Shown here: positions 3,966 through 18,514 of the stretch, piece by piece | Position numbering within the stretch: the first letter of the stretch is position 1 | Layout: each line of letters starts with the position of its first letter | Source of the DNA: an uncultured bacterium | Lineage (GTDB): Bacteria > Patescibacteriota > Minisyncoccia > Phycocordibacterales > UBA9973 | Assembly: GCA_903894955.1 (NCBI GenBank) | Contig: CAITSA010000004.1 | Span: 1-45,144 of the forward strand | Direction: 5' to 3' | Length of the DNA: 45,144 nt | Notes under the pieces: generated by a model | Seen by the model: only the letters and a program-made list of their open reading frames with translations | Databases searched by the model: none | What the model was told of the DNA's origin: nothing | Translations under genes and position numbers: made by a program

Positions 3966-4805
3966 TTAAATTCCAAATATTCGTTTAGCATTTGTGACAA
4001 CAGCTAGGGCAACTTCAGCTTCTCCTAGATTTTTTATCTCAGCAATTTTTCTGACAATTTCTTTCACATAAACAGGCTCATTACGCTTACCGCGATAAGG
4101 TACCGGAGCGACATAAGGAGAATCTGTATCAGTTAGGATCATGTCGAGTGGAATATTTTTAATAACTTCATTGTAGTGAAAGCCTGTTCCGTCCTTTTTA
4201 GGAGGGAAAGTGATAGCACCAGCAAACGAAACCATAAATCCAAAATCTACAAAACCTTTCGCTTCTTCCAATGTACCAGAAAAAAAGTGAACTACACCTT
4301 TTACTTTTGCGTATTCTTTTAAGATGTTTAAGGCATCAACATAGGCATCTCTGATGTGCAACATCAGAGGCTTATTAAGTTCATTGGCAAGTTCTATCTG
4401 TTTAATAAATACTTCCCTTTGTTTTGCGATTAATTCTTTCTCCGCATGATAATAATCTAGCCCACATTCACCAATAGCTACCACTTTTTTATCTTTTATA
4501 AATTCTCTATAAATATTTTTATCGAAAATTTCTCCACGAGAGGTAAATTCTCCTCCCTCTTCCCCTAACTCCTGTTTATCATGATGTGAAGCACTAGTAT
4601 GTATCGGATGCAATCCAATAACTGCATACACGCCCTCTTTGTATTTATTTGCTAGTTCAATCGCCTTTTTGGATGTATCTACTTGTGTACCAACATTTAT
4701 TACCCAAGTATCGTTTTCCAAGGCACGTTTAATTACCTCGTCTCTATCAGCGTCAAAAGCTTTAAAATTTACATGACTATGTATGTCTATATACTTGGGC
4801 ATCAT
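3966..4805 (-). CDS. tatD: TatD family DNase
   Basis: IDIHSH, GLHP, AIGECGLDY, LHIRDA, TDSPY, RNEP. Confidence 0.96.
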   Translation of the reverse strand: MMPKYIDIHSHVNFKAFDADRDEVIKRALENDTWVINVGTQVDTSKKAIELANKYKEGVYAVIGLHPIHTSASHHDKQELGEEGGEFTSRGEIFDKNIYREFIKDKKVVAIGECGLDYYHAEKELIAKQREVFIKQIELANELNKPLMLHIRDAYVDALNILKEYAKVKGVVHFFSGTLEEAKGFVDFGFMVSFAGAITFPPKKDGTGFHYNEVIKNIPLDMILTDTDSPYVAPVPYRGKRNEPVYVKEIVRKIAEIKNLGEAEVALAVVTNAKRIFGI

Positions 4806-4813
4806 AAATGCAA

Positions 4814-5200
4814 TTATACCCCCACCAGACCTCCCCCTACATTAGGGTGAGGCCCAGATGAAAGTTTCATTTTAATCTTCTTCAACACTTCGTCAATATT
4901 ACCACTTATCTCGCTATTCCAAAAACGCAAAATTTTTATGTCGTTCATCAATAAATAATTATCTCTTTCTTTATCATAGTCTTTATTTTTTAAATGCTGG
5001 GAACCATCTAATTCAATACCTATTCTTTTTTCTGAACAATAAAAATCTAAAATGTAAGGACCAGCAGAATATTGCCGAACAAATTTGAAACCTAGATTTT
5101 TTCTCCGCAAACTATTCCATAGTAATTTTTCTTCTTTGGTTTCATTGTGGCGTAGTTCTTTACGTCTTGGTTTAAATTTTGGATCATTATATAAAAACAT
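4814..5200 (-). CDS. DUF559 / Vsr-like PD-(D/E)XK endonuclease domain protein
   Basis: RRKELRHNETKEEKLLW..LR, KFVRQY..GPYILDFYC, IELDGSQH, DKERD, ILRFWNSEI. Confidence 0.9.
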   Translation of the reverse strand: MFLYNDPKFKPRRKELRHNETKEEKLLWNSLRRKNLGFKFVRQYSAGPYILDFYCSEKRIGIELDGSQHLKNKDYDKERDNYLLMNDIKILRFWNSEISGNIDEVLKKIKMKLSSGPHPNVGGGLVGV

Positions 5201-5253
5201 ATGTATACATTTTCCCTCACCCTAAAGTAGGGGGAGGGTTAGGGTGGGGGTAT
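4816..5253. mobile_element. Candidate cassette: DUF559 gene between inverted ~38-nt hairpin repeats
   Basis: Left 4816-4852 ATACCCCCACCAGACCTCCCCCTACATTAGGGTGAGG; reverse complement of right 5214-5253 ATACCCCCACCCTAACCCTCCCCCTACTTTAGGGTGAGGG; sits between metG and tatD. Confidence 0.7.
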
Positions 5254-6711
5254 TTAATCCTTTCGTAAAAACAAAGGTTTTTCTGGCTTTTTGTTTTCTT
5301 TAATTAATTTCTTTAAAATAATATTTGTCTCTGGCATTATTGGATTTAGCATCCGAGCTATCTCATACAAACAAATAACCATATCGGAAATCAAAACTTT
5401 TCCCTTTTCTTCATCTGTTTTCACCACCTTAAATGGTTCCCGCTCTTGAATAAATTTATCTAACTCCCCTATTTTATTCCAAACATGATCTACTGCTTGT
5501 TTAATATCAAACTTTTCAAAAAAATTAAAATATTCCGCAAAATCAGATTTCTCTGGAATTTCTGGACATTTATCTAAATATTTTTCAGATAAAGTTAAAA
5601 TACGACTGGCTAAATTCCCCAACCCGTTTGCTAATCCAGAATTGTAAGCTTCTTTAAACCTTTCCATTGTAAATGGACTATCCTCAAATGAGGATATTTC
5701 CCGCAAAAGAAAATAACGCAATGCATCAGGCCCATATTCTTTCACAATATCATTCGGATTAATTACATTACCAAGCGATTTTGACATTTTAATTCCTCCT
5801 TCACCAGTAATAAAACCATGATAAACAATCGTATCTGTCGTTGGTAAACCAGCAGACATCAACATCCCTTGCCACATCACAGACTGAAATTTAACCATAT
5901 CTTTACCGGCAGTCTGGACAGTTTTTCCGTCTTGCCAAAATTTTTCAAACTTTCCCTTACTATCGGGCCACCCTAAGGTGGAAATATAATTTATGAAAGC
6001 ACCAAACCAGACATACATAACTTGAGTGTCATCTCCGGGTATTGGTATACCCCAAGAAAAACGTTTTTTATTACGAGAAATTGAAAAATCTTCCATGCCA
6101 TTTTGTACAAAATCAATTGCCTCAATTCTCCTCCACTCTGGAAAAATTACTTTGTCCCCTGCAAGATATTCTAAAAGTTCTTTTTTGTATTTTGTTAATT
6201 TAAAAAAATAATTCTCTTCTTCAACCATCTCTAATTTTTGAGTTGGATGAAGAGAGCAAAAACCATTCATCAAATCTTTCTCAGTAATAAATCTTTCACA
6301 TCCCACACAATAAAGTCCTCTATATATTTTTTTATAGATATCTCCTTTTGCTTCACAAAGACGCCAAAATTCTTGCGCAGCCTTAATGTTTTCTTTGCTA
6401 GTAGTCCGAATAAAATTGTCATTAGAAAGATTTAAGGTTTCTTTTAAGTTCAGAAACTTTTCTGCATAATAATCAACATATTCTTGAACATTCTTGCCCT
6501 CTTTCTGACTTGCTTCCCAGATTTTCTGCCCATATTCATCTGTACCTGTACTAAAAAAAACATCTTTGCTCAAACGTTGATAGCGCGCAATAACATCTGA
6601 TTGCACAAGCTCAAGTGCAAAACCAATATGAGGATCAGCATTTACATAAGGAATAGTCGTCGTAATATAGAAACTTTTTTTATCGGGATTCATCCCGTTA
6701 GAAATTTTCAT
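5254..6711 (-). CDS. metG: Methionine--tRNA ligase (short form, no C-terminal OB domain)
   Basis: ITTTIPYVNADPHIGF, TGTDEYGQK, CVGCE, YVWF, KMSKSLGN; alternative start ATG 6693. Confidence 0.97.
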   Translation of the reverse strand: MKISNGMNPDKKSFYITTTIPYVNADPHIGFALELVQSDVIARYQRLSKDVFFSTGTDEYGQKIWEASQKEGKNVQEYVDYYAEKFLNLKETLNLSNDNFIRTTSKENIKAAQEFWRLCEAKGDIYKKIYRGLYCVGCERFITEKDLMNGFCSLHPTQKLEMVEEENYFFKLTKYKKELLEYLAGDKVIFPEWRRIEAIDFVQNGMEDFSISRNKKRFSWGIPIPGDDTQVMYVWFGAFINYISTLGWPDSKGKFEKFWQDGKTVQTAGKDMVKFQSVMWQGMLMSAGLPTTDTIVYHGFITGEGGIKMSKSLGNVINPNDIVKEYGPDALRYFLLREISSFEDSPFTMERFKEAYNSGLANGLGNLASRILTLSEKYLDKCPEIPEKSDFAEYFNFFEKFDIKQAVDHVWNKIGELDKFIQEREPFKVVKTDEEKGKVLISDMVICLYEIARMLNPIMPETNIILKKLIKENKKPEKPLFLRKD

Positions 6712-7844: not shown

Positions 7845-7953
7845 AAAAACATAATACCATAAAATATACCCCTCCCCAAATAAAGAGAGGATGCCGTAGT
7901 GGAAGATGTTAGAACTATGTTTGAAAGATTAAATGATACAAGTATTTATATTC

Positions 7954-14383: not shown

Positions 14384-17300
14384 CTATTTGATCACGAAAT
14401 TTTTTAATTCTAAGATTATAGGAGCAATAGACTCATTGTTTATATCCTCTGGTTTTATTTTACATTTTGCAAAAATTTGTTTTTCAATTTGTCTTATGGC
14501 ATTTTCAAATGCGTCTCGTTCAGGCGTATTTTCTTTATGATGTGCATAGCGCTTTCTTAAATCCACAAGTCTTTGTTCTATACTTACTACGCCAAAAATC
14601 CCCACGCGTTCATCACAGTAATCAACGATTTTTTTACCCCAATCCATAGCAGAAGAAATATCGGGTGCACCTAGAAAACTAATGGAATTGATTAATTCCA
14701 CTACGCGTTCACTCACGTTTATTTCTTTGGCAATTTTTGAGTGAGCAGAATATTCATTTTTGCCATATTTTTTAATGTACTCATTTTGAACATTTTGCCA
14801 ATATTCTATTCCTTCTGGTTCATTAAGTTCAGAAAAATAATTTAAGTCAAATTTAATAATATTTCCCATATCGTGAAGCAGGCAGGCAGTGATAATTTCT
14901 TCTTTTGGTAACGGCTCGGTAAAATTATCACAAATCAAAGATGCCACTGCCGCCGTTCGGAGCATATGTTCCTGCAAGCTCGGCATGATTTTATATTTTT
15001 TATATATTGTTTCAATAGGAAGAGGCATCTTGTCTCCTGGGTTAAGACCGAGCTTTTTTCTTTGATCTTGAAGCTCTCGCATAAACTCACGATACTCCCC
15101 CTCTGCTTTGAGTGCTGGAGTAATATTTATATCGAGTTCTACTTCTGTTTTTAAATTTTTATTTTCTAAAATATCTTTTACATTTATTTCATCTTTTATC
15201 AGATCAGCAAATTCTTTTCCTAAAACAAAATTCTTAACTTCTAGTTTAGAAAGTGGTTGACGCACTTTTAATCCAGCTTTTTGTCTAGCTTCAAGCCCCA
15301 AAGTTACAATTTTTCTGACTATCTCCATATTGTCTATAACCCCCTCCTTCTCCTCCCCTTTATTAAGGAGGAGGTTGGGTAGGGGTATAATTCCAAAAAG
15401 TTTTAATTGTTTAGCAGGCCAATTTTCCAAATGCACACTTTCTTTATCACTATCTGTTTTTAATTTCAGCCAAATATCTTCTGCTGTAAACGGAGCAAAG
15501 GGAGCCATAATTTTAGTAAGAGTTTTTAGTACAAAATATAAAGTCGCTCTTGCCCCGTCCTCTTTGGCGGGGTTTGTTACCTCTTCTTTAATACGCTCAC
15601 GGGAACGACGTAAATACCAAGTAGAAAGGTCGCCAATAAAATCTTTTATTCCTCTGACGGGTTCCAATAATTTATAATCATCCATTTTCTTTGTAGATTC
15701 ATCAATCAATTCATCTAATCGCGCTAAAATCCATTGGTCAAGCACATTTTTTGACTTGGGTTTATCTCGACTTGCCCCGTAGCGAGCTTGCTCTGCTATG
15801 GGGTAAAGTTCATAAAACGCAAGTACGTTATAGAGCAAAGTAAAAACTTGTTGATGTAGTAAGGAAACAGTTTTTTCATCAAAATTTTTAGATTCACCTG
15901 GTTGATTAACCGAGTACATCCAGAGACGAAGTGTGTCGACACCATATTTATCCATCGCATCCCATGGATCAACAATATTACCGAGAGATTTAGACATTTT
16001 CTTCCCTTTCGCATCTAGTAAATGTCCTAAGCAAATGACATTTTTATAAGCTTTCCCTCGTCCCATCAATACCCCAACAGCATGAAGGGTATAAAACCAT
16101 CCTCGAGTCTGGTCAATCGCTTCAGAGATAAAATCAGCAGGATAACCCACACCGTCTACCCATTTTTTATTCTCAAATGGATAATGATCTTCCGCAAAAG
16201 GCATACAGCCAGAATCTAGCCAGACATCCATCACTTCTTTAGTTCTTACTAAATTTCCACCACAGGAACAAACAAGTTTTACTTCATCAATATATGGTCG
16301 GTGTAAATCAAGTTCATAATCTTCATTATGTGGAAGGGGTACAAAATCAAGTTCTACCACTTTAGCATTAGGAAAATCTATAGTTTTATTTATTAAATGT
16401 TTGGTTGTTTCAGCATCATTTAATCCCTTTATCCCAGCTGAAAGCATATTGGCCGGTCCCTCATGAGTAACAATTAAAATATTTCTATCTTTGTATTTAT
16501 TTTCAATATCATAAAGAAAACTTGTCATTCTTGATTTAACTTCTTTGCAAGATTCCCCATTCTTTGGTACACAAAGATACCAATCTTGTTTGGACTTAAA
16601 ATCAAAGTATTCTTCCCATGTTTTTCCGTTAAAAATTCCAGTATTTATTTCTCTAATTCTCTTATCAAAAATAAAATTGTTATTTTCAATTTCTAATTCT
16701 TTTTTTACAATTTCTGCAGTTTCTTTAGTTCTCGTAAGATCAGAGGAAATTATTAAATCTATTTTTTTATTTTTTATTTCAGAAATGGAATTCAAAACCT
16801 GTTTCTTTCCTGCTTTGGTTAAATGATCTGCACCTCCAACTTCTGAACTTATTATATATTTTACATTGCTTTCTGCCTCACCATGTCTCATCACAAAATA
16901 TTTGTTACCAGATTTTTTTGTTTTTTCTTTTATTTCTTGAATGCTGCCAATAACCTCAACCTTCTTGCAAGTTTCACAAACCCAAACTGGAAGGGGTGTA
17001 CCCCAATATCGTTCACGAGAAATTGCCCAATCTTTTATCTCCTCCAACCATTGTCCAAAACGCCCATCGCGAATATGCGCTGGCTCCCAATTTATTTCTT
17101 TATTCTCCTTAATCATCTTTTCTTTTATTTTTGGATCAGAAACTTTGATATACCAAGAATCTCGAGCATAATAAATAAGCGCTGTTTTACATCTCCAACA
17201 ATGAGGATAAGAGTGTTCATATTTTTCTTTTTTTAACAAAAGTCCTCTATGGGCTAAATCTTTAATAATATCAACGGCTACTTCTTCGTCCCGCACAAAT

Positions 17301-18514
17301 CTACCTTCGAATATTCCCGTTCCGGGTAGAAATTTTCCATCCAAGCCAACCAAATGATGCTTGGGTAAACCAATCTTTGTGCCAAGTTCAAAGTCATCCT
17401 GTCCATACATTACTGCTGTATGCACCACACCCGTACCGTCTTCAGTGGTGACAAAATCCGCTCCGTAAACTTTATAAGCTTTTTCTAGTTTTAGTTTTTC
17501 ACTTTCAGAAATAATATTTTCTAAATATGGATATAATGGTTCGTATTCCAAGCCAACTAAGTCTTTACCTTTTAATTCTTTTATCACCTCATATTCCCCA
17601 TCTATTACAGAAAGCCGATTTTTAGCGAGAATTAAAAATTCGTTTTCCCCGCCCGCCGGCGAGGCAGGTTTTTTTATTTTTACATAATCAATATTTTTTC
17701 CAACCGCTAAAGCCACATTACCAGGTAATGTCCACGGGGTCGTGGTCCAAGCAAGAATGTAGCTATCAGTGGAAATATCGCTCTTGCGGGGTGTCTCGCA
17801 GGCTGACGAGCCGAGAGGCAGCGCTGTGTCAGCAGACACAGACAGCGACCCTGCGGGAGTGATATTTCCACCTACTATTTTAAATTTTATATACACTGAT
17901 AAATCTTTTACATCTTCATAACCCTGCGCAAGCTCATGCGAAGAAAGAGCGGTTCCGCACCTTGGACACCAAGGTACAACTTTATAATCTTTAAAAAGTA
18001 AATTTTGATTATTTATTTTTTTAATAATATTCCAAACAGACTCAATATAATCGTTGTGATATGTCACATACGGATTTTCTTGGTCAGCCCAATAGCCCAT
18101 CCTTTCTGTGAAATTTTTCCATAATCCAATATATTCCCAAACACTGTCTTTGCATAATTTATTGAAATCTGAAATACCATAATTTTCAATATCATTTTTT
18201 GATTTAAACCCAAGCTTTTTTTCTATCTGTAATTCTACTGGTAAACCATGTGTATCCCAGCCCCCTTTGCGACGAACATGAAAGCCACGCATAGTTTTGT
18301 ACCTTGGAATAACATCTTTAAAAGAAAAAGGTACCATCGTATGTAAAACTGGCTTAGAATTTGCTGTAACTGGGCCATCATAGAAAATAAATTCTTTTCT
18401 TCCTTTCGATTGTTCTAAGGATTTTTCAAAAGTTTTATGTTCTTTCCAAAATTCTAAAACACGCTCTTCACGAAGAGCCGCGTCAGATTTTTTATTTGTA
18501 TTTTTTTCTTCCAT
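14384..18514 (-). CDS. ileS: Isoleucine--tRNA ligase (type 2) with inserted histidine-phosphatase domain and C-terminal HD domain
   Basis: DGPVTAN, GWDTHGLPVE, WTTTPWTLPGN, GTGVVH, DWAISRERYWG, DQTRGWFY, KMSKS; Ile T-box upstream; RHGE insert; LLHDMG C-terminal domain. Confidence 0.96.
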   Translation of the reverse strand: MEEKNTNKKSDAALREERVLEFWKEHKTFEKSLEQSKGRKEFIFYDGPVTANSKPVLHTMVPFSFKDVIPRYKTMRGFHVRRKGGWDTHGLPVELQIEKKLGFKSKNDIENYGISDFNKLCKDSVWEYIGLWKNFTERMGYWADQENPYVTYHNDYIESVWNIIKKINNQNLLFKDYKVVPWCPRCGTALSSHELAQGYEDVKDLSVYIKFKIVGGNITPAGSLSVSADTALPLGSSACETPRKSDISTDSYILAWTTTPWTLPGNVALAVGKNIDYVKIKKPASPAGGENEFLILAKNRLSVIDGEYEVIKELKGKDLVGLEYEPLYPYLENIISESEKLKLEKAYKVYGADFVTTEDGTGVVHTAVMYGQDDFELGTKIGLPKHHLVGLDGKFLPGTGIFEGRFVRDEEVAVDIIKDLAHRGLLLKKEKYEHSYPHCWRCKTALIYYARDSWYIKVSDPKIKEKMIKENKEINWEPAHIRDGRFGQWLEEIKDWAISRERYWGTPLPVWVCETCKKVEVIGSIQEIKEKTKKSGNKYFVMRHGEAESNVKYIISSEVGGADHLTKAGKKQVLNSISEIKNKKIDLIISSDLTRTKETAEIVKKELEIENNNFIFDKRIREINTGIFNGKTWEEYFDFKSKQDWYLCVPKNGESCKEVKSRMTSFLYDIENKYKDRNILIVTHEGPANMLSAGIKGLNDAETTKHLINKTIDFPNAKVVELDFVPLPHNEDYELDLHRPYIDEVKLVCSCGGNLVRTKEVMDVWLDSGCMPFAEDHYPFENKKWVDGVGYPADFISEAIDQTRGWFYTLHAVGVLMGRGKAYKNVICLGHLLDAKGKKMSKSLGNIVDPWDAMDKYGVDTLRLWMYSVNQPGESKNFDEKTVSLLHQQVFTLLYNVLAFYELYPIAEQARYGASRDKPKSKNVLDQWILARLDELIDESTKKMDDYKLLEPVRGIKDFIGDLSTWYLRRSRERIKEEVTNPAKEDGARATLYFVLKTLTKIMAPFAPFTAEDIWLKLKTDSDKESVHLENWPAKQLKLFGIIPLPNLLLNKGEEKEGVIDNMEIVRKIVTLGLEARQKAGLKVRQPLSKLEVKNFVLGKEFADLIKDEINVKDILENKNLKTEVELDINITPALKAEGEYREFMRELQDQRKKLGLNPGDKMPLPIETIYKKYKIMPSLQEHMLRTAAVASLICDNFTEPLPKEEIITACLLHDMGNIIKFDLNYFSELNEPEGIEYWQNVQNEYIKKYGKNEYSAHSKIAKEINVSERVVELINSISFLGAPDISSAMDWGKKIVDYCDERVGIFGVVSIEQRLVDLRKRYAHHKENTPERDAFENAIRQIEKQIFAKCKIKPEDINNESIAPIILELKNFVIK
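15336..15389. repeat. 54-nt hairpin element in frame in ileS, related to the DUF559-flanking repeats
   Basis: Minus strand ATACCCCTACCCAACCTCCTCCTTAATAAAGGGGAGG versus ATACCCCCACCCTAACCCTCCCCCTACTTTAGGGTGAGG; encodes IPLPNLLLNKGEEKEGV. Confidence 0.7.
15549..15573. repeat. Short hairpin element in frame in ileS (TGCCCCG...GGGGT family)
   Basis: CTTGCCCCGTCCTCTTTGGCGGGGT; encodes PAKEDGAR. Confidence 0.7.
15771..15806. repeat. Hairpin element in frame in ileS (TGCCCCG...GGGGT family)
   Basis: TTGCCCCGTAGC/GCTATGGGGTAA stem with inner GAGCTTGCTC; encodes PIAEQARYGAS. Confidence 0.8.
17648..17668. repeat. 21-nt element in frame in ileS (CCTGCC...GGCGGG family)
   Basis: Minus strand CCTGCCTCGCCGGCGGGCGGG, same length and ends as the recA elements; encodes PASPAGG. 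Confidence 0.8.
17769..17871. mobile_element. 103-nt MITE-like structured element in frame in the ileS CP1 region
   Basis: 24-nt terminal inverted repeats (GTGGAAATATC...GATATTTCCAC, 20/24) with three internal hairpins; adds about 34 aa. Confidence 0.8.

What the first reader, a model, noticed from the sequence alone, without database searches (positions are those of the whole stretch)
4814..5253. DUF559 nuclease gene boxed by inverted REP-like hairpins: candidate nuclease-plus-repeat selfish system
Seen: the 438-bp segment between the metG stop and tatD consists of a DUF559 gene between two inverted ~38-nt repeats. They share an 11/11 outer block (ATACCCCCACC) and a 22/23 hairpin block. Each folds into CCTC-C-CCCTA/TAGGG-T-GAGG with the same single mismatch, and one repeat encodes the protein's C-terminus. 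A related element lies in frame in ileS (15336-15389), and a possible decayed one at 7866-7890. Known: metG and tatD are commonly neighbours; REP/REPIN repeats flank their RAYT (HUH) mobiliser in this inverted layout; DUF559 is a Vsr-like PD-(D/E)XK fold whose role is, to my knowledge, not established. Inference: DUF559 may act as a non-HUH mobiliser of these hairpins, perhaps nicking mismatched stems as Vsr nicks mismatches.
Basis: partly seen in the sequence, partly recalled or inferred. Interest (0 to 1): 0.9.

Follow-up and report, generated by a model that had tools for sequence, protein, structure and literature searches.

The report
DUF559 nuclease boxed by BoxC repeats
A small nuclease gene of unknown function sits between two inverted copies of a GC-rich repeat long known in E. 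coli as BoxC, and this pairing recurs across many bacterial groups, which suggests that the nuclease is the missing partner that spreads these orphan repeats.

Summary
A 128-aa DUF559 (Vsr-like) nuclease gene (4814-5200, minus strand) fills the metG-tatD gap. It is bracketed by inverted ~38-nt GC-rich repeats, which shuffled sequence does not produce. The repeats are not REPs. They fit the BoxC / PIT / intrastrand-triplex motif (TM) described in E. coli and more than 260 genomes, for which no mobilising activity was found (PMC4666352).

- All 3 DUF559 genes of this genome are boxed this way; one lies in frame inside leuS.
- 23 of 32 relatives' loci and 61 of 79 loci from many phyla exceed the 99th percentile of controls.
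- In 30 congeners the metG-tatD site is empty in 16, holds a DUF559 cassette in 7 and a gene-less repeat in 1.
- Genomes with DUF559 carry many gene-less hairpins: 23 of 34 against 2 of 47, and 24 of 44 against 19 of 257 class-wide. RAYT-like genes do not explain this.
- The nuclease is under purifying selection and resembles homing endonuclease I-Bth0305I.
- E. coli ycjD lies 168 nt from a BoxC copy.

Best reading: a mobile nuclease-plus-repeat system. The mechanism is inferred, and the mismatch-nicking idea is unsupported. I found no paper linking DUF559 to these repeats.

The parts
3966..4805 (-). tatD (TatD-family DNase), the downstream host gene. In 16 of 30 congeners its ATG abuts the metG stop.
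4816..4852 (-). 3'-side repeat of the cassette. Read on the minus strand it is CCTCACCCTA-ATG-TAGGGGGAGG-TCT-GGTGGGGGTAT, a three-block C-G-G motif of BoxC/PIT/TM type, diverged from the consensus. It encodes the disordered C-terminal tail of DUF559, and the stop codon lies at its outer end (4814-4816).
4814..5200 (-). DUF559 gene, 128 aa, a Vsr-like PD-(D/E)XK nuclease. The motif residues D57, E68, G71 and H74 are invariant and D70 is nearly invariant in 30 relatives. dN/dS is 0.04-0.16.
5214..5253 (+). 5'-side repeat of the cassette: CCCTCACCC-TAAAGTA-GGGGGAGGG-TTA-GGGTGGGGG-TAT. It fits the published TM(ECO)/BoxC consensus, with loop 1 one base longer and one A>G change in block 3.
   Evidence: consensus read in PMC4666352
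5254..6711 (-). metG (methionyl-tRNA synthetase), the upstream host gene, in the same orientation as the cassette.
15336..15392 (.). Gene-less palindromic copy (C-C-G-G) of the same repeat kind, in frame in ileS.

Best explanation
The segment 4814-5253 is a compact cassette of about 440 bp that moves horizontally. It consists of a Vsr-like DUF559 nuclease gene bracketed by two inverted copies of the BoxC/PIT/intrastrand-triplex motif (TM). I read DUF559 and the TM repeats as one selfish system, arranged like RAYT-REP/REPIN. The nuclease gene is single-copy per subfamily and sits between inverted repeats. The many gene-less TM hairpins scattered through the same genomes are its non-autonomous partners, including copies in frame in ileS, leuS and metG.

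Shown here:
- the architecture and its recurrence across phyla;
- presence/absence at orthologous sites;
- co-occurrence of repeats with the nuclease;
- purifying selection on the nuclease;
- element phylogeny that disagrees with the flanking host genes.

Inferred:
- The nuclease recognises the TM (sequence or folded form) and cuts at or near it.
- The break is repaired by copying from another TM-bounded locus. The ~25-nt outer halves of a palindromic TM would serve as homology arms.
- This would convert a gene-less TM into a gene-carrying one, or back, and spread TM-bounded DNA, with or without cargo.
- How TMs reach naive sites is not known. All 24 aligned copies end TACCCC...GGGGTA, so insertion at TA is possible.
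- The C/T-rich then G/A-rich blocks translate into Pro/Ser/Gly/Glu-rich linkers, which would explain why in-frame insertions in essential genes are tolerated.
For: (1) All 3 DUF559 genes of this genome are boxed by inverted C/G hairpin repeats of three different sequence families. One (C11 ~4095-4560) lies in frame inside leuS.

(2) Flanking inverted-repeat score against same-geometry control windows:
- 23 of 32 loci from this genome and relatives exceed the 99th percentile of 1557 controls.
- 61 of 79 scored loci do so against 3890 controls, out of 80 kept from 591 relatives in a species-level genome collection that included Saccharibacteria, Proteobacteria, Nitrospirae, Chloroflexi, Verrucomicrobia, Bacteroidota and one Bathyarchaeia.
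- A C/G hairpin lies within 220 nt on at least one side in 30 of 32 and 79 of 80 loci, and on both sides in 23 and 62. The background is 0.21-0.24 per kb.

(3) Polymorphic sites.
- metG-tatD in 30 congeners: 16 abut (-4 to +4 nt), 7 hold a DUF559 cassette (2 of them with a cargo ORF), 1 holds a gene-less TM of the window family.
- leuS loop in 30 congeners: 18 short loops, including the nearest relative G087 (93% identical N-terminus); 3 DUF559 cassettes plus 1 composite; 2 gene-less TMs in frame.
- A gene-less copy before the recR-like gene is absent from 5 of 5 relatives.

(4) Co-occurrence, counting genomes with 5 or more hairpins.
- With strong DUF559 23 of 34, without 2 of 47. The reversed-pattern control is equal in both groups.
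- Class-wide 24 of 44 against 19 of 257, odds ratio 15.
- Stratified by RAYT-like Y1_Tnp: Y1+ DUF+ 20 of 28, Y1+ DUF- 2 of 27, Y1- DUF+ 3 of 6, Y1- DUF- 0 of 20.
- The exact window-family hairpin occurs in 8 of 81 genomes, and all 8 carry DUF559.

(5) The nuclease looks functional. Eleven columns are invariant in 30 sequences of 30-78% identity. dN/dS is 0.04-0.16. The profile hits 3HRL at 4.6e-32 and I-Bth0305I (3R3P) at 1.6e-4. The fold matches 3HRL (TM-score 0.84 relative to the target) and 3R3P (0.75). PHROG homing-endonuclease families hit as well.

(6) Horizontal movement to the same site. In L113 the DUF559 core is 92% identical (dN 0.044, dS 1.16), while the flanking metG is 63% (dS 2.06) and tatD 70%. 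In G003 it is the reverse, 57% against 82%.

(7) E. coli K-12. The 3' end of ycjD (DUF559) runs into a C/G hairpin, and TMECO no. 9 of 23 lies 168 nt downstream.
Against: - No biochemical activity is known for DUF559, and no strand-transfer enzyme is present in the cassette. The 'paste' step is therefore unexplained.
- No target-site duplication beyond an ambiguous terminal TA was seen in 24 copies or in two filled/empty comparisons.
- The association is not absolute. 11 of 34 (genus/order sample) and 20 of 44 (class sample) DUF559 genomes have fewer than 5 hairpins. 19 of 257 genomes without a strong DUF559 have 5 or more. One of them, G110, is a single-contig, 100%-complete genome with 17 hairpins and no DUF559 at E <= 0.01.
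- Cognate pairing is not strict. G043 has 5 window-family hairpins, but its only detected DUF559 belongs to another subfamily.
- DUF559 copies within one genome are at most ~79% identical, and that only over short stretches. There is no sign of recent intragenomic copying of the gene.
- Two opposite arrangements occur, repeat outer arms distal or proximal to the gene, 11 loci each among the 80. A single insertion model does not explain both.
- Related genomes are not independent, so the p-values overstate the case.
- The whole-genome DUF559 search can miss genes. Its control did not ring in E. coli, although K-12 carries ycjD.
Confidence: 0.55

Rival explanations
1. DUF559 is a free-standing homing endonuclease gene that only lands in pre-existing TM repeats, or in conserved host sites. 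The TM repeats spread by some unrelated route, and the nuclease does not mobilise them.
For: - In the window cassette the outer half-blocks equal the gene-less consensus (CCTCCCCCTA / TAGGGGGAGG), while the inner blocks are variants. This looks as if the gene with short inverted ends sits in the loop of one palindromic TM.
- A gene-less TM occupies the same metG-tatD site in G043 and the same leuS site in G008 and G003.
- Subfamilies recur at one site across species, with phylogeny that disagrees with the flanks.
- The protein is homologous to I-Bth0305I.
- A complete genome has 17 hairpins and no DUF559.
Against: - It leaves the origin of the repeats unexplained.
- In the genus/order sample repeats are almost never abundant without DUF559 (2 of 47).
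- The reverse arrangement, with repeat arms proximal to the gene, is as frequent as the window's among diverse loci.
- Empty sites (TAA-N-ATG, or the AT-rich leuS loop) bear no likeness to a TM, so a TM-specific enzyme would not cut them.
Confidence: 0.22
2. DUF559 is a host-serving, structure-specific nuclease that processes hairpin or triplex structures formed by TM repeats. It limits the instability they cause and is kept linked to them by selection, not by mobility.
For: - Purifying selection is strong: dN/dS 0.04-0.16.
- There is a single copy per subfamily and no recent duplicates.
- TM loci are reported as more rearranged among E. coli strains (PMC4666352, abstract and discussion passages).
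- It co-occurs with repeats.
Against: - It does not explain why the gene itself is boxed by inverted repeats in 62 of 80 and 23 of 32 loci.
- It does not explain insertion in frame into leuS.
- It does not explain the patchy presence, 31 of 48 congeners.
- It does not explain why the element is younger than its flanks in L113.
Confidence: 0.1
3. The hairpins are only expression signals of the cassette (terminator, mRNA stabiliser or translational insulator), and the dispersed copies are unrelated look-alikes.
For: - The hairpins abut the ORF on both sides, within roughly 10-50 nt of the start, and overlap the 3' end.
- The cassette lies inside an operon, in the host orientation, in 7 of 7 metG-site cases.
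Against: - The hairpins lack T runs and lie inside reading frames.
- PIT elements were reported to show no promoter or terminator activity (PMC4666352, introduction and discussion passages).
- 24 gene-less copies share both termini and both arms with the cassette.
- Shuffles give 0 three-block motifs against 13 observed.
Confidence: 0.04

Closest known systems
BoxC / PIT element / intrastrand triplex motif TM(ECO) of E. coli and many bacteria (Bergler 1992 as cited; Hoyne/Maher 2000 as cited; Holder et al. 2015, PMC4666352)
   Same: It has the same three-block layout, CCCTCNCCC-loop-GGGNGAGGG-N3-GGGNGAGGG. The window's right repeat fits it. Copies are often paired in inverted orientation, dispersed and polymorphic between strains.
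   Different: The published work treats the motif as an orphan repeat and DNA-structure element. It states that no mobility activity was found near it, and the words endonuclease, DUF and Vsr do not occur in the text. Here the motif brackets a nuclease gene. It also occurs inside coding frames, whereas E. coli copies were reported as always intergenic.
REP/REPIN with RAYT (HUH Y1 transposase)
   Same: A single-copy gene is flanked by inverted hairpin repeats. Many gene-less copies occur in the same genome, and repeat abundance tracks the gene.
   Different: The enzyme fold is PD-(D/E)XK/Vsr-like, not HUH. There is no GTAG/CGTC head. RAYT-like genes in this same genome have their own, different hairpins, and they do not predict TM abundance.
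Vsr-like homing endonucleases: I-Bth0305I (PMC3239194) and the family found in fractured genes/split inteins (PMC2677866); for both I saw only the search listing and abstract
   Same: The catalytic domain is homologous. The gene is inserted at conserved sites of essential genes, with a patchy and horizontally incongruent distribution.
   Different: There is no intron and no intein. The gene is boxed by repeats that also exist gene-less in many copies, which is not a feature of described homing endonuclease genes.
Rickettsia palindromic elements (RPE), which insert in frame into protein genes (recalled; no paper read here)
   Same: Short palindromic repeats are tolerated in frame in essential genes.
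   Different: The sequence is unrelated and no nuclease partner is known. This is a likeness by recall only.
E. coli YcjD (DUF559) and N. gonorrhoeae NGO0050 (PDB 3HRL)
   Same: They belong to the same protein family: NCBIfam PRK09767 at 8e-24, 3HRL at 4.6e-32. ycjD also runs into a C/G hairpin and has TMECO no. 9 168 nt downstream.
   Different: In K-12 only the 3' side shows the repeat; the 5' side has an unrelated 17-bp hairpin. The function of both proteins is unknown.

Membership tests
Pfam DUF559 (PF04480) | Profile score above the gathering cut-off over the whole domain | tested here: met
   108.8 bits against 20.6, covering positions 6-108 of 109
Vsr-like PD-(D/E)XK nuclease fold | Fold likeness to solved members, and conserved acidic/His motif residues | tested here: met
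   Foldseek gives 3HRL TM-score 0.84 and 3R3P 0.75 (both relative to the target), with 1VSR at rank 18. D57, E68, G71 and H74 are invariant and D70 nearly so in 30 sequences. Which of these residues are catalytic is inferred, not tested.
Vsr proper (very-short-patch repair) | Match to the Vsr family (PF03852), and a partner cytosine methyltransferase with a T:G mismatch context | tested here: not met
   PF03852 is not among the Pfam hits at E <= 0.01 and there is no PF03852 match in the genome. The neighbours are metG and tatD. I did not search for dcm.
BoxC / PIT / TM(ECO) repeat | Three blocks, CCCTCNCCC N3-6 GGGNGAGGG N3 GGGNGAGGG | tested here: met
   5214-5250 matches with loop 1 of 7 nt and one A>G in block 3; 0 of 100 shuffles match. 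The left repeat is more diverged.
BoxC / PIT / TM(ECO) repeat | Forms an intrastrand triplex | not testable with these tools
   Only hairpin folding could be computed.
REP/REPIN-RAYT | HUH Y1 transposase between the repeats | tested here: not met
   The boxed gene is DUF559. The four Y1_Tnp matches of the genome lie elsewhere. Three of them (C26, C3, C14:17997-18221) have other hairpin families beside them. No hairpin was seen beside the fourth (C14:174-425), which lies at a contig end.
Homing endonuclease gene | Site-specific presence/absence at a conserved host site, with phylogeny incongruent with the host | tested here: met
Homing endonuclease gene | Cleaves the empty allele of its own site | not testable with these tools
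   This needs an enzyme assay.
Intein / group I or II intron host of the nuclease | Hint domain, or an intron RNA, around the gene | tested here: not met
   No Hint domain in the leuS product. No Rfam family at E <= 0.1-1 around the three cassettes.
MITE / DNA transposon | Terminal inverted repeats, a target-site duplication and a cognate transposase | tested here: inconclusive
   Inverted ends are present (TACCCC...GGGGTA in 24 of 24 copies). The only possible duplication is the palindromic TA. There is no DDE, HUH or recombinase gene in the cassette.

The most novel reading that the evidence does not exclude
DUF559 proteins are the long-missing mobilisers of the BoxC/PIT/triplex-motif repeats found in hundreds of bacterial genomes, E. 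coli K-12 included (YcjD). Together they form a new class of transposase-free mobile element, driven by a Vsr-like PD-(D/E)XK nuclease that recognises a three-block hairpin/triplex-prone DNA. Because the repeats encode flexible linkers, the element can carry cargo and can sit in frame inside essential genes.
Probability: 0.35. Interest if true: 0.9.

Novelty: new variant of a known kind. Interest (0 to 1): 0.8.

Why it matters
Two old orphans would explain each other. BoxC/PIT/TM repeats have been catalogued since the early 1990s. They are present in more than 260 genomes and are linked to local genome instability, yet they have no known function or spreading mechanism (PMC4666352). DUF559/YcjD is a very widespread nuclease family with no assigned role.

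A physical and statistical link between them gives a directly testable hypothesis in E. coli K-12: ycjD against its 23 BoxC copies. If it holds, it adds a nuclease family outside HUH, DDE and the recombinases to the enzymes that drive repeat proliferation.

The link also bears on how ultra-small CPR genomes with no intergenic space tolerate selfish DNA, namely as in-frame linker-like insertions in aminoacyl-tRNA synthetases. In addition, it flags a source of spurious Pro/Ser/Gly-rich tails in annotated proteins.

Tried and rejected
- Mismatch-nicking (Vsr-like) reading: rejected as unsupported. The stem mismatch is not T:G, it shifts position among close relatives, and it is absent from many cassettes and from the gene-less copies.
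- REP/RAYT membership: rejected.
- Intron or intein host: none found.
- Defence-system reading: PADLOC gave only two marginal hits, E 6e-4 and 2e-3.
- Target-site duplication: I looked for one in two filled/empty pairs with G087 and in 24 aligned copies. Nothing appeared beyond the terminal TA.
- Recent intragenomic copies of the gene: none found in G033, G001, G028 or G075.
- Strict cognate pairing of repeat subfamily and nuclease subfamily: not upheld.
- 'Decayed' copy at 7866-7890: not confirmed.
- Sequencing runs: no RNA holder was listed. Contigs of four lake-water runs of one study were laid on the window. One 134-nt contig of X2 joins 4802 to 5269 with 31 other letters, about 92% alike and with side 30. 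It most likely comes from a related organism with an empty site and is not evidence of excision. Parts without cover mean nothing.
- Supplementary files of PMC4666352 (flanking-gene tables S2, S7) could not be seen. They may list ycjD as a neighbour of TMECO 9.
- Literature: searches (9 of 10 used), plus passages read in PMC4666352, PMC3424549, PMC1189080, PMC2267715, PMC3184786 and PMC10969869, gave no paper linking DUF559/YcjD to BoxC/PIT/TM repeats. Subscription journals are not covered.
Full report
**What is there.** The window comes from a 627-kb, 35% G+C, 31-contig genome (77% complete). Its closest named relatives are Candidatus Nomurabacteria, in the Patescibacteria. On the minus strand, metG (5254-6711) is followed by a 128-aa ORF (4814-5200) and then tatD (3966-4805). 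The ORF is a full-length DUF559 domain (PF04480, E 1.7e-31).

It is bracketed by inverted GC-rich repeats at 4816-4852 and 5214-5253. The 11-nt outer block is identical in both, and these are its only two exact copies in the genome. The 23-nt hairpin block is 22/23 identical, and no shuffle reproduces it. The 3' repeat encodes the last 13 residues of the protein, and the stop codon sits at the repeat's outer end. In an AlphaFold model (mean pLDDT 83.7) that tail is disordered. Only the 'decayed' copy at 7866-7890 could not be confirmed.

**What the repeats are.** Each repeat has three similar blocks. On one strand these are a C-rich block, a G-rich block that pairs with it, and a second G-rich block. 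The right repeat reads CCCTCACCC-TAAAGTA-GGGGGAGGG-TTA-GGGTGGGGG. This fits the consensus CCCTCNCCC N3-6 GGGNGAGGG N3 GGGNGAGGG given for the E. coli 'TMECO' motif, apart from one extra loop base and one A>G (consensus read in PMC4666352).

That motif is the BoxC repeat of the 1990s and the 'PIT' element of 2000. Holder et al. (2015) report the following; I read the outline, sections 15 and 18, Table 1 and several passages.
- There are 23 copies in E. coli K-12.
- It occurs in more than 260 genomes, with very many copies in cyanobacteria and Neisseria.
- It forms a triplex in vitro.
- Variability around the copies is raised.
The words endonuclease, DUF and Vsr do not occur in the text.

**The pairing is general.** This genome has three DUF559 genes, and all three are boxed by inverted C/G hairpin repeats of three different sequence families.

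I scored the best inverted repeat between 170-nt windows on either side of the DUF559 core and compared it with same-geometry windows elsewhere in the same loci.
- 23 of 32 loci exceeded the 99th percentile of 1557 controls. These were the 3 of this genome plus the best 29 of relatives.
- 61 of 79 did so among the 80 best of 591 relatives found in a one-genome-per-species collection; one locus had too short a flank. Those 80 include Saccharibacteria, Delta-, Beta-, Gamma- and Alphaproteobacteria, Nitrospirae, Chloroflexi, Verrucomicrobia, Bacteroidota and one Bathyarchaeia.
- Their repeats share the same blocks (CCCTCACCC / CCCTCTCCC / GGGAGAGGG).
- A simple detector found a C/G hairpin within 220 nt of the core on at least one side in 30 of 32 and 79 of 80 loci, and on both sides in 23 and 62. 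The background is 0.21-0.24 per kb.

Two mirror arrangements exist. In one, the outer arms are distal to the gene, as in the window: 13 of 32 relatives and 11 of 80 diverse loci. In the other, they are proximal: 11 of 80. These 80 loci were chosen by likeness to the Nomurabacteria proteins, so the result holds for this clade of DUF559, not for every DUF559 domain.

**Gene-less copies.**
- The genome holds 13 three-block motifs, 6 of them palindromic C-C-G-G forms. A block shuffle gives none.
- Four share the exact hairpin of the window cassette.
- Some lie between a stop codon and the next ATG. Others lie in frame in ileS (window 15336-15392) and in the C-terminal part of leuS.
- 24 copies of this family from 8 genomes all end TACCCC...GGGGTA. 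Their flanks share nothing more.

**Presence/absence at orthologous sites.**

The metG-tatD junction in 30 congeners:
- 16 have the metG stop abutting the tatD ATG (-4 to +4 nt).
- 1 has a 13-nt gap.
- 7 hold a DUF559 cassette, always in the metG orientation. Two of these carry an extra ORF between the left repeat and DUF559: a glyoxalase-family gene (43 bits) and a weak nucleotidyltransferase-like gene.
- 1 (G043) holds a 65-nt gene-less copy of the window family.
- 1 has an AT-rich palindrome, 3 have other inserts, and 1 is unresolved.

The loop of LeuRS between NWIGRSEG.EI.F and KVFTTRPDT in 30 congeners:
- 18 have a 17-25-aa loop.
- 3 have the repeat-DUF559-repeat cassette in frame, and 1 has a composite.
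- 2 have a hydrolase-like domain.
- 5 are intermediate. Two of these (G008, G003) hold gene-less three-block repeats in frame.
- 1 is too diverged to score.

The nearest relative, G087 (93% identical N-terminus), lacks both the cassette and the 51-nt C-terminal copy, while the rest of the protein aligns almost letter for letter. The leuS product carries DUF559 at residues 264-368. There is no Hint domain, and no intron family is detected. It is therefore a plain in-frame insertion. One locus of each 30 comes from the unpublished genome G091.

**Co-occurrence.** The pattern CCYCYCCN{4,12}GGRGRGG gives 6 hits in this genome and 0 in a shuffle. I used it to count hairpins per genome.
- Across 81 genomes (this one, 48 congeners, 32 other genera of the order), genomes with a strong DUF559 match (E < 1e-15) have a median of 10 hairpins, or 8 after subtracting two per gene. 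The others have a median of 0.
- Five or more hairpins occur in 23 of 34 against 2 of 47. The reversed pattern is equal in both groups.
- In a class-wide draw of 301 genomes the figures are 24 of 44 against 19 of 257, odds ratio 15.
- The genome also has four RAYT-like Y1_Tnp genes. At least three of them have other hairpin families beside them.
- Stratifying by Y1_Tnp shows that the hairpins follow DUF559: 20 of 28 against 2 of 27 where Y1_Tnp is present, and 3 of 6 against 0 of 20 where it is not.

Against the simple picture, orphan repeats exist. G110 is a closed, complete genome with 17 hairpins and no DUF559. G043 has five window-family hairpins, but its nuclease belongs to another subfamily. 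Many DUF559 genomes have few hairpins. Related genomes are not independent. The whole-genome family search also has misses: its control did not ring in E. coli, although K-12 has ycjD.

**The protein.**
- Thirty relatives of 30-78% identity keep R22, E29, W33, R47, Q48, D57, F58, E68, G71, H74 and R84.
- dN/dS of the core is 0.04-0.16, with saturated dS.
- A profile hits 3HRL (N. gonorrhoeae, 4.6e-32) and the catalytic domain of the homing endonuclease I-Bth0305I (1.6e-4).
- The model's best structural matches are the same two, followed by Vsr-like domains of mitoribosomal proteins and PvuRts1I/AbaSI, with Vsr itself at rank 18.
- It is not Vsr proper.

**Movement.**
- Copies within one genome are old; the best nucleotide matches are about 67-79% over parts.
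- Between genomes, element and flanks disagree. Identity of DUF559 at the metG site does not follow MetG identity (rho 0.22, 36 pairs).
- In L113 the DUF559 core is 92% identical to the window's (dN 0.044, dS 1.16). The adjoining metG end is 63% (dS 2.06) and tatD 70% (dS not computable).
- In G003 the reverse holds: 57% against 82%.
- Saturation limits these figures. They nevertheless point to horizontal arrival at the same site more than once.

**E. coli.** In K-12, ycjD (b1289, annotated as a DUF559 protein) lies between sapF and fabI. Its last codons run into CCCTCTCCCTGAAAGAGCGAGGGGG. TMECO no. 9 of the published Table 1 (1351239-1351204) lies 168 nt downstream. The 5' side shows only an unrelated 17-bp hairpin. 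The BoxC reference cited by Holder et al. is the envM (fabI) paper, which is this neighbourhood. That BoxC was first seen at exactly this spot is my recollection.

**Reading.** I put 0.55 on this.
- The step from 'associated and mobile' to 'the nuclease cuts the repeat and thereby spreads it' is inference.
- The window cassette looks like a gene with short inverted ends lying in the loop of one palindromic copy. The outer halves match the gene-less consensus, and the inner halves are variants. This suits copying by break repair with the outer halves as homology arms.
- The mirror arrangement and the arrival at naive sites remain unexplained.
- Rivals: a pure homing endonuclease that uses pre-existing repeats (0.22), a host-serving structure-specific nuclease (0.10), and mere expression signals (0.04).

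**Novelty.** Both parts are known separately. I found no paper joining them: nine searches, plus passages in six papers. The library lacks most subscription journals and the supplements were closed. I therefore call it a new variant of a known kind (a repeat family with a dedicated nuclease), with a categorically new mobility mechanism as the boldest reading not excluded.

Noticed in passing
G000 genome-wide; in the window at about 930-955: A second, more abundant palindrome family, CCTGCCTGC-CGG-CAGGCAGG, makes up about 20 of the 96 GC-rich hairpins listed in the genome (4 in a shuffle). It has no evident partner gene.
   Followed up: no
G000 C26:14995-15279, C3:1616-1852, C14:174-425, C14:17997-18221: There are four RAYT-like Y1_Tnp matches. 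At least two are flanked by their own hairpin families (CCACTGAGGCAAGACCTCAGTGG; ACTAGCGAGGACAGTCCTAGCTAG). So classical REP-RAYT-like systems coexist with the DUF559-TM system.
   Followed up: partly
window 14384-18514 (-), ileS: IleRS is 1376 aa. It carries an inserted histidine-phosphatase domain (residues 540-705) and a C-terminal HD domain (1182-1228), besides the in-frame repeat.
   Followed up: partly
G000 C11:3374-6682 (leuS); L194 (G087 leuS); L050, L054, L037: LeuRS of this genus is a mosaic. G000 has a NUDIX domain at residues 552-646. G087 has a ~160-aa hydrolase-like insert at another site. G013, G039 and G026 have ~196-aa hydrolase-like inserts at the DUF559 site. In G026 that insert lies next to a three-block repeat, as if it were in-frame cargo.
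   Followed up: partly
L024 (G026 leuS cassette): A repeat-like peptide (NNLTPALPERKGENADG) interrupts the DUF559 domain itself. It appears to be a nested insertion of a gene-less copy into the nuclease gene.
   Followed up: no
L077 (G033 metG): MetG carries an in-frame Pro/Gly-rich stretch (HHPALKGTPPQAGGED) that looks like another translated repeat.
   Followed up: no
L193 (E. coli K-12 1351040-1351410): About 100 nt downstream of ycjD there is a partial duplicate of the gene's own 3' end (about 45 nt), just before TMECO no. 9. This suggests a past rearrangement or replacement of the cassette end.
   Followed up: no
L076 (G022 metG-tatD): Here the DUF559 cassette and a small extra ORF are flanked by ~115-nt direct repeats. 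Each repeat is made of two opposed three-block motifs.
   Followed up: no
window 4802/5269, run X2: A short contig from the same lake-water study joins the metG end to the tatD start without the cassette, at about 92% likeness. It is probably a co-occurring relative with an empty site.
   Followed up: partly
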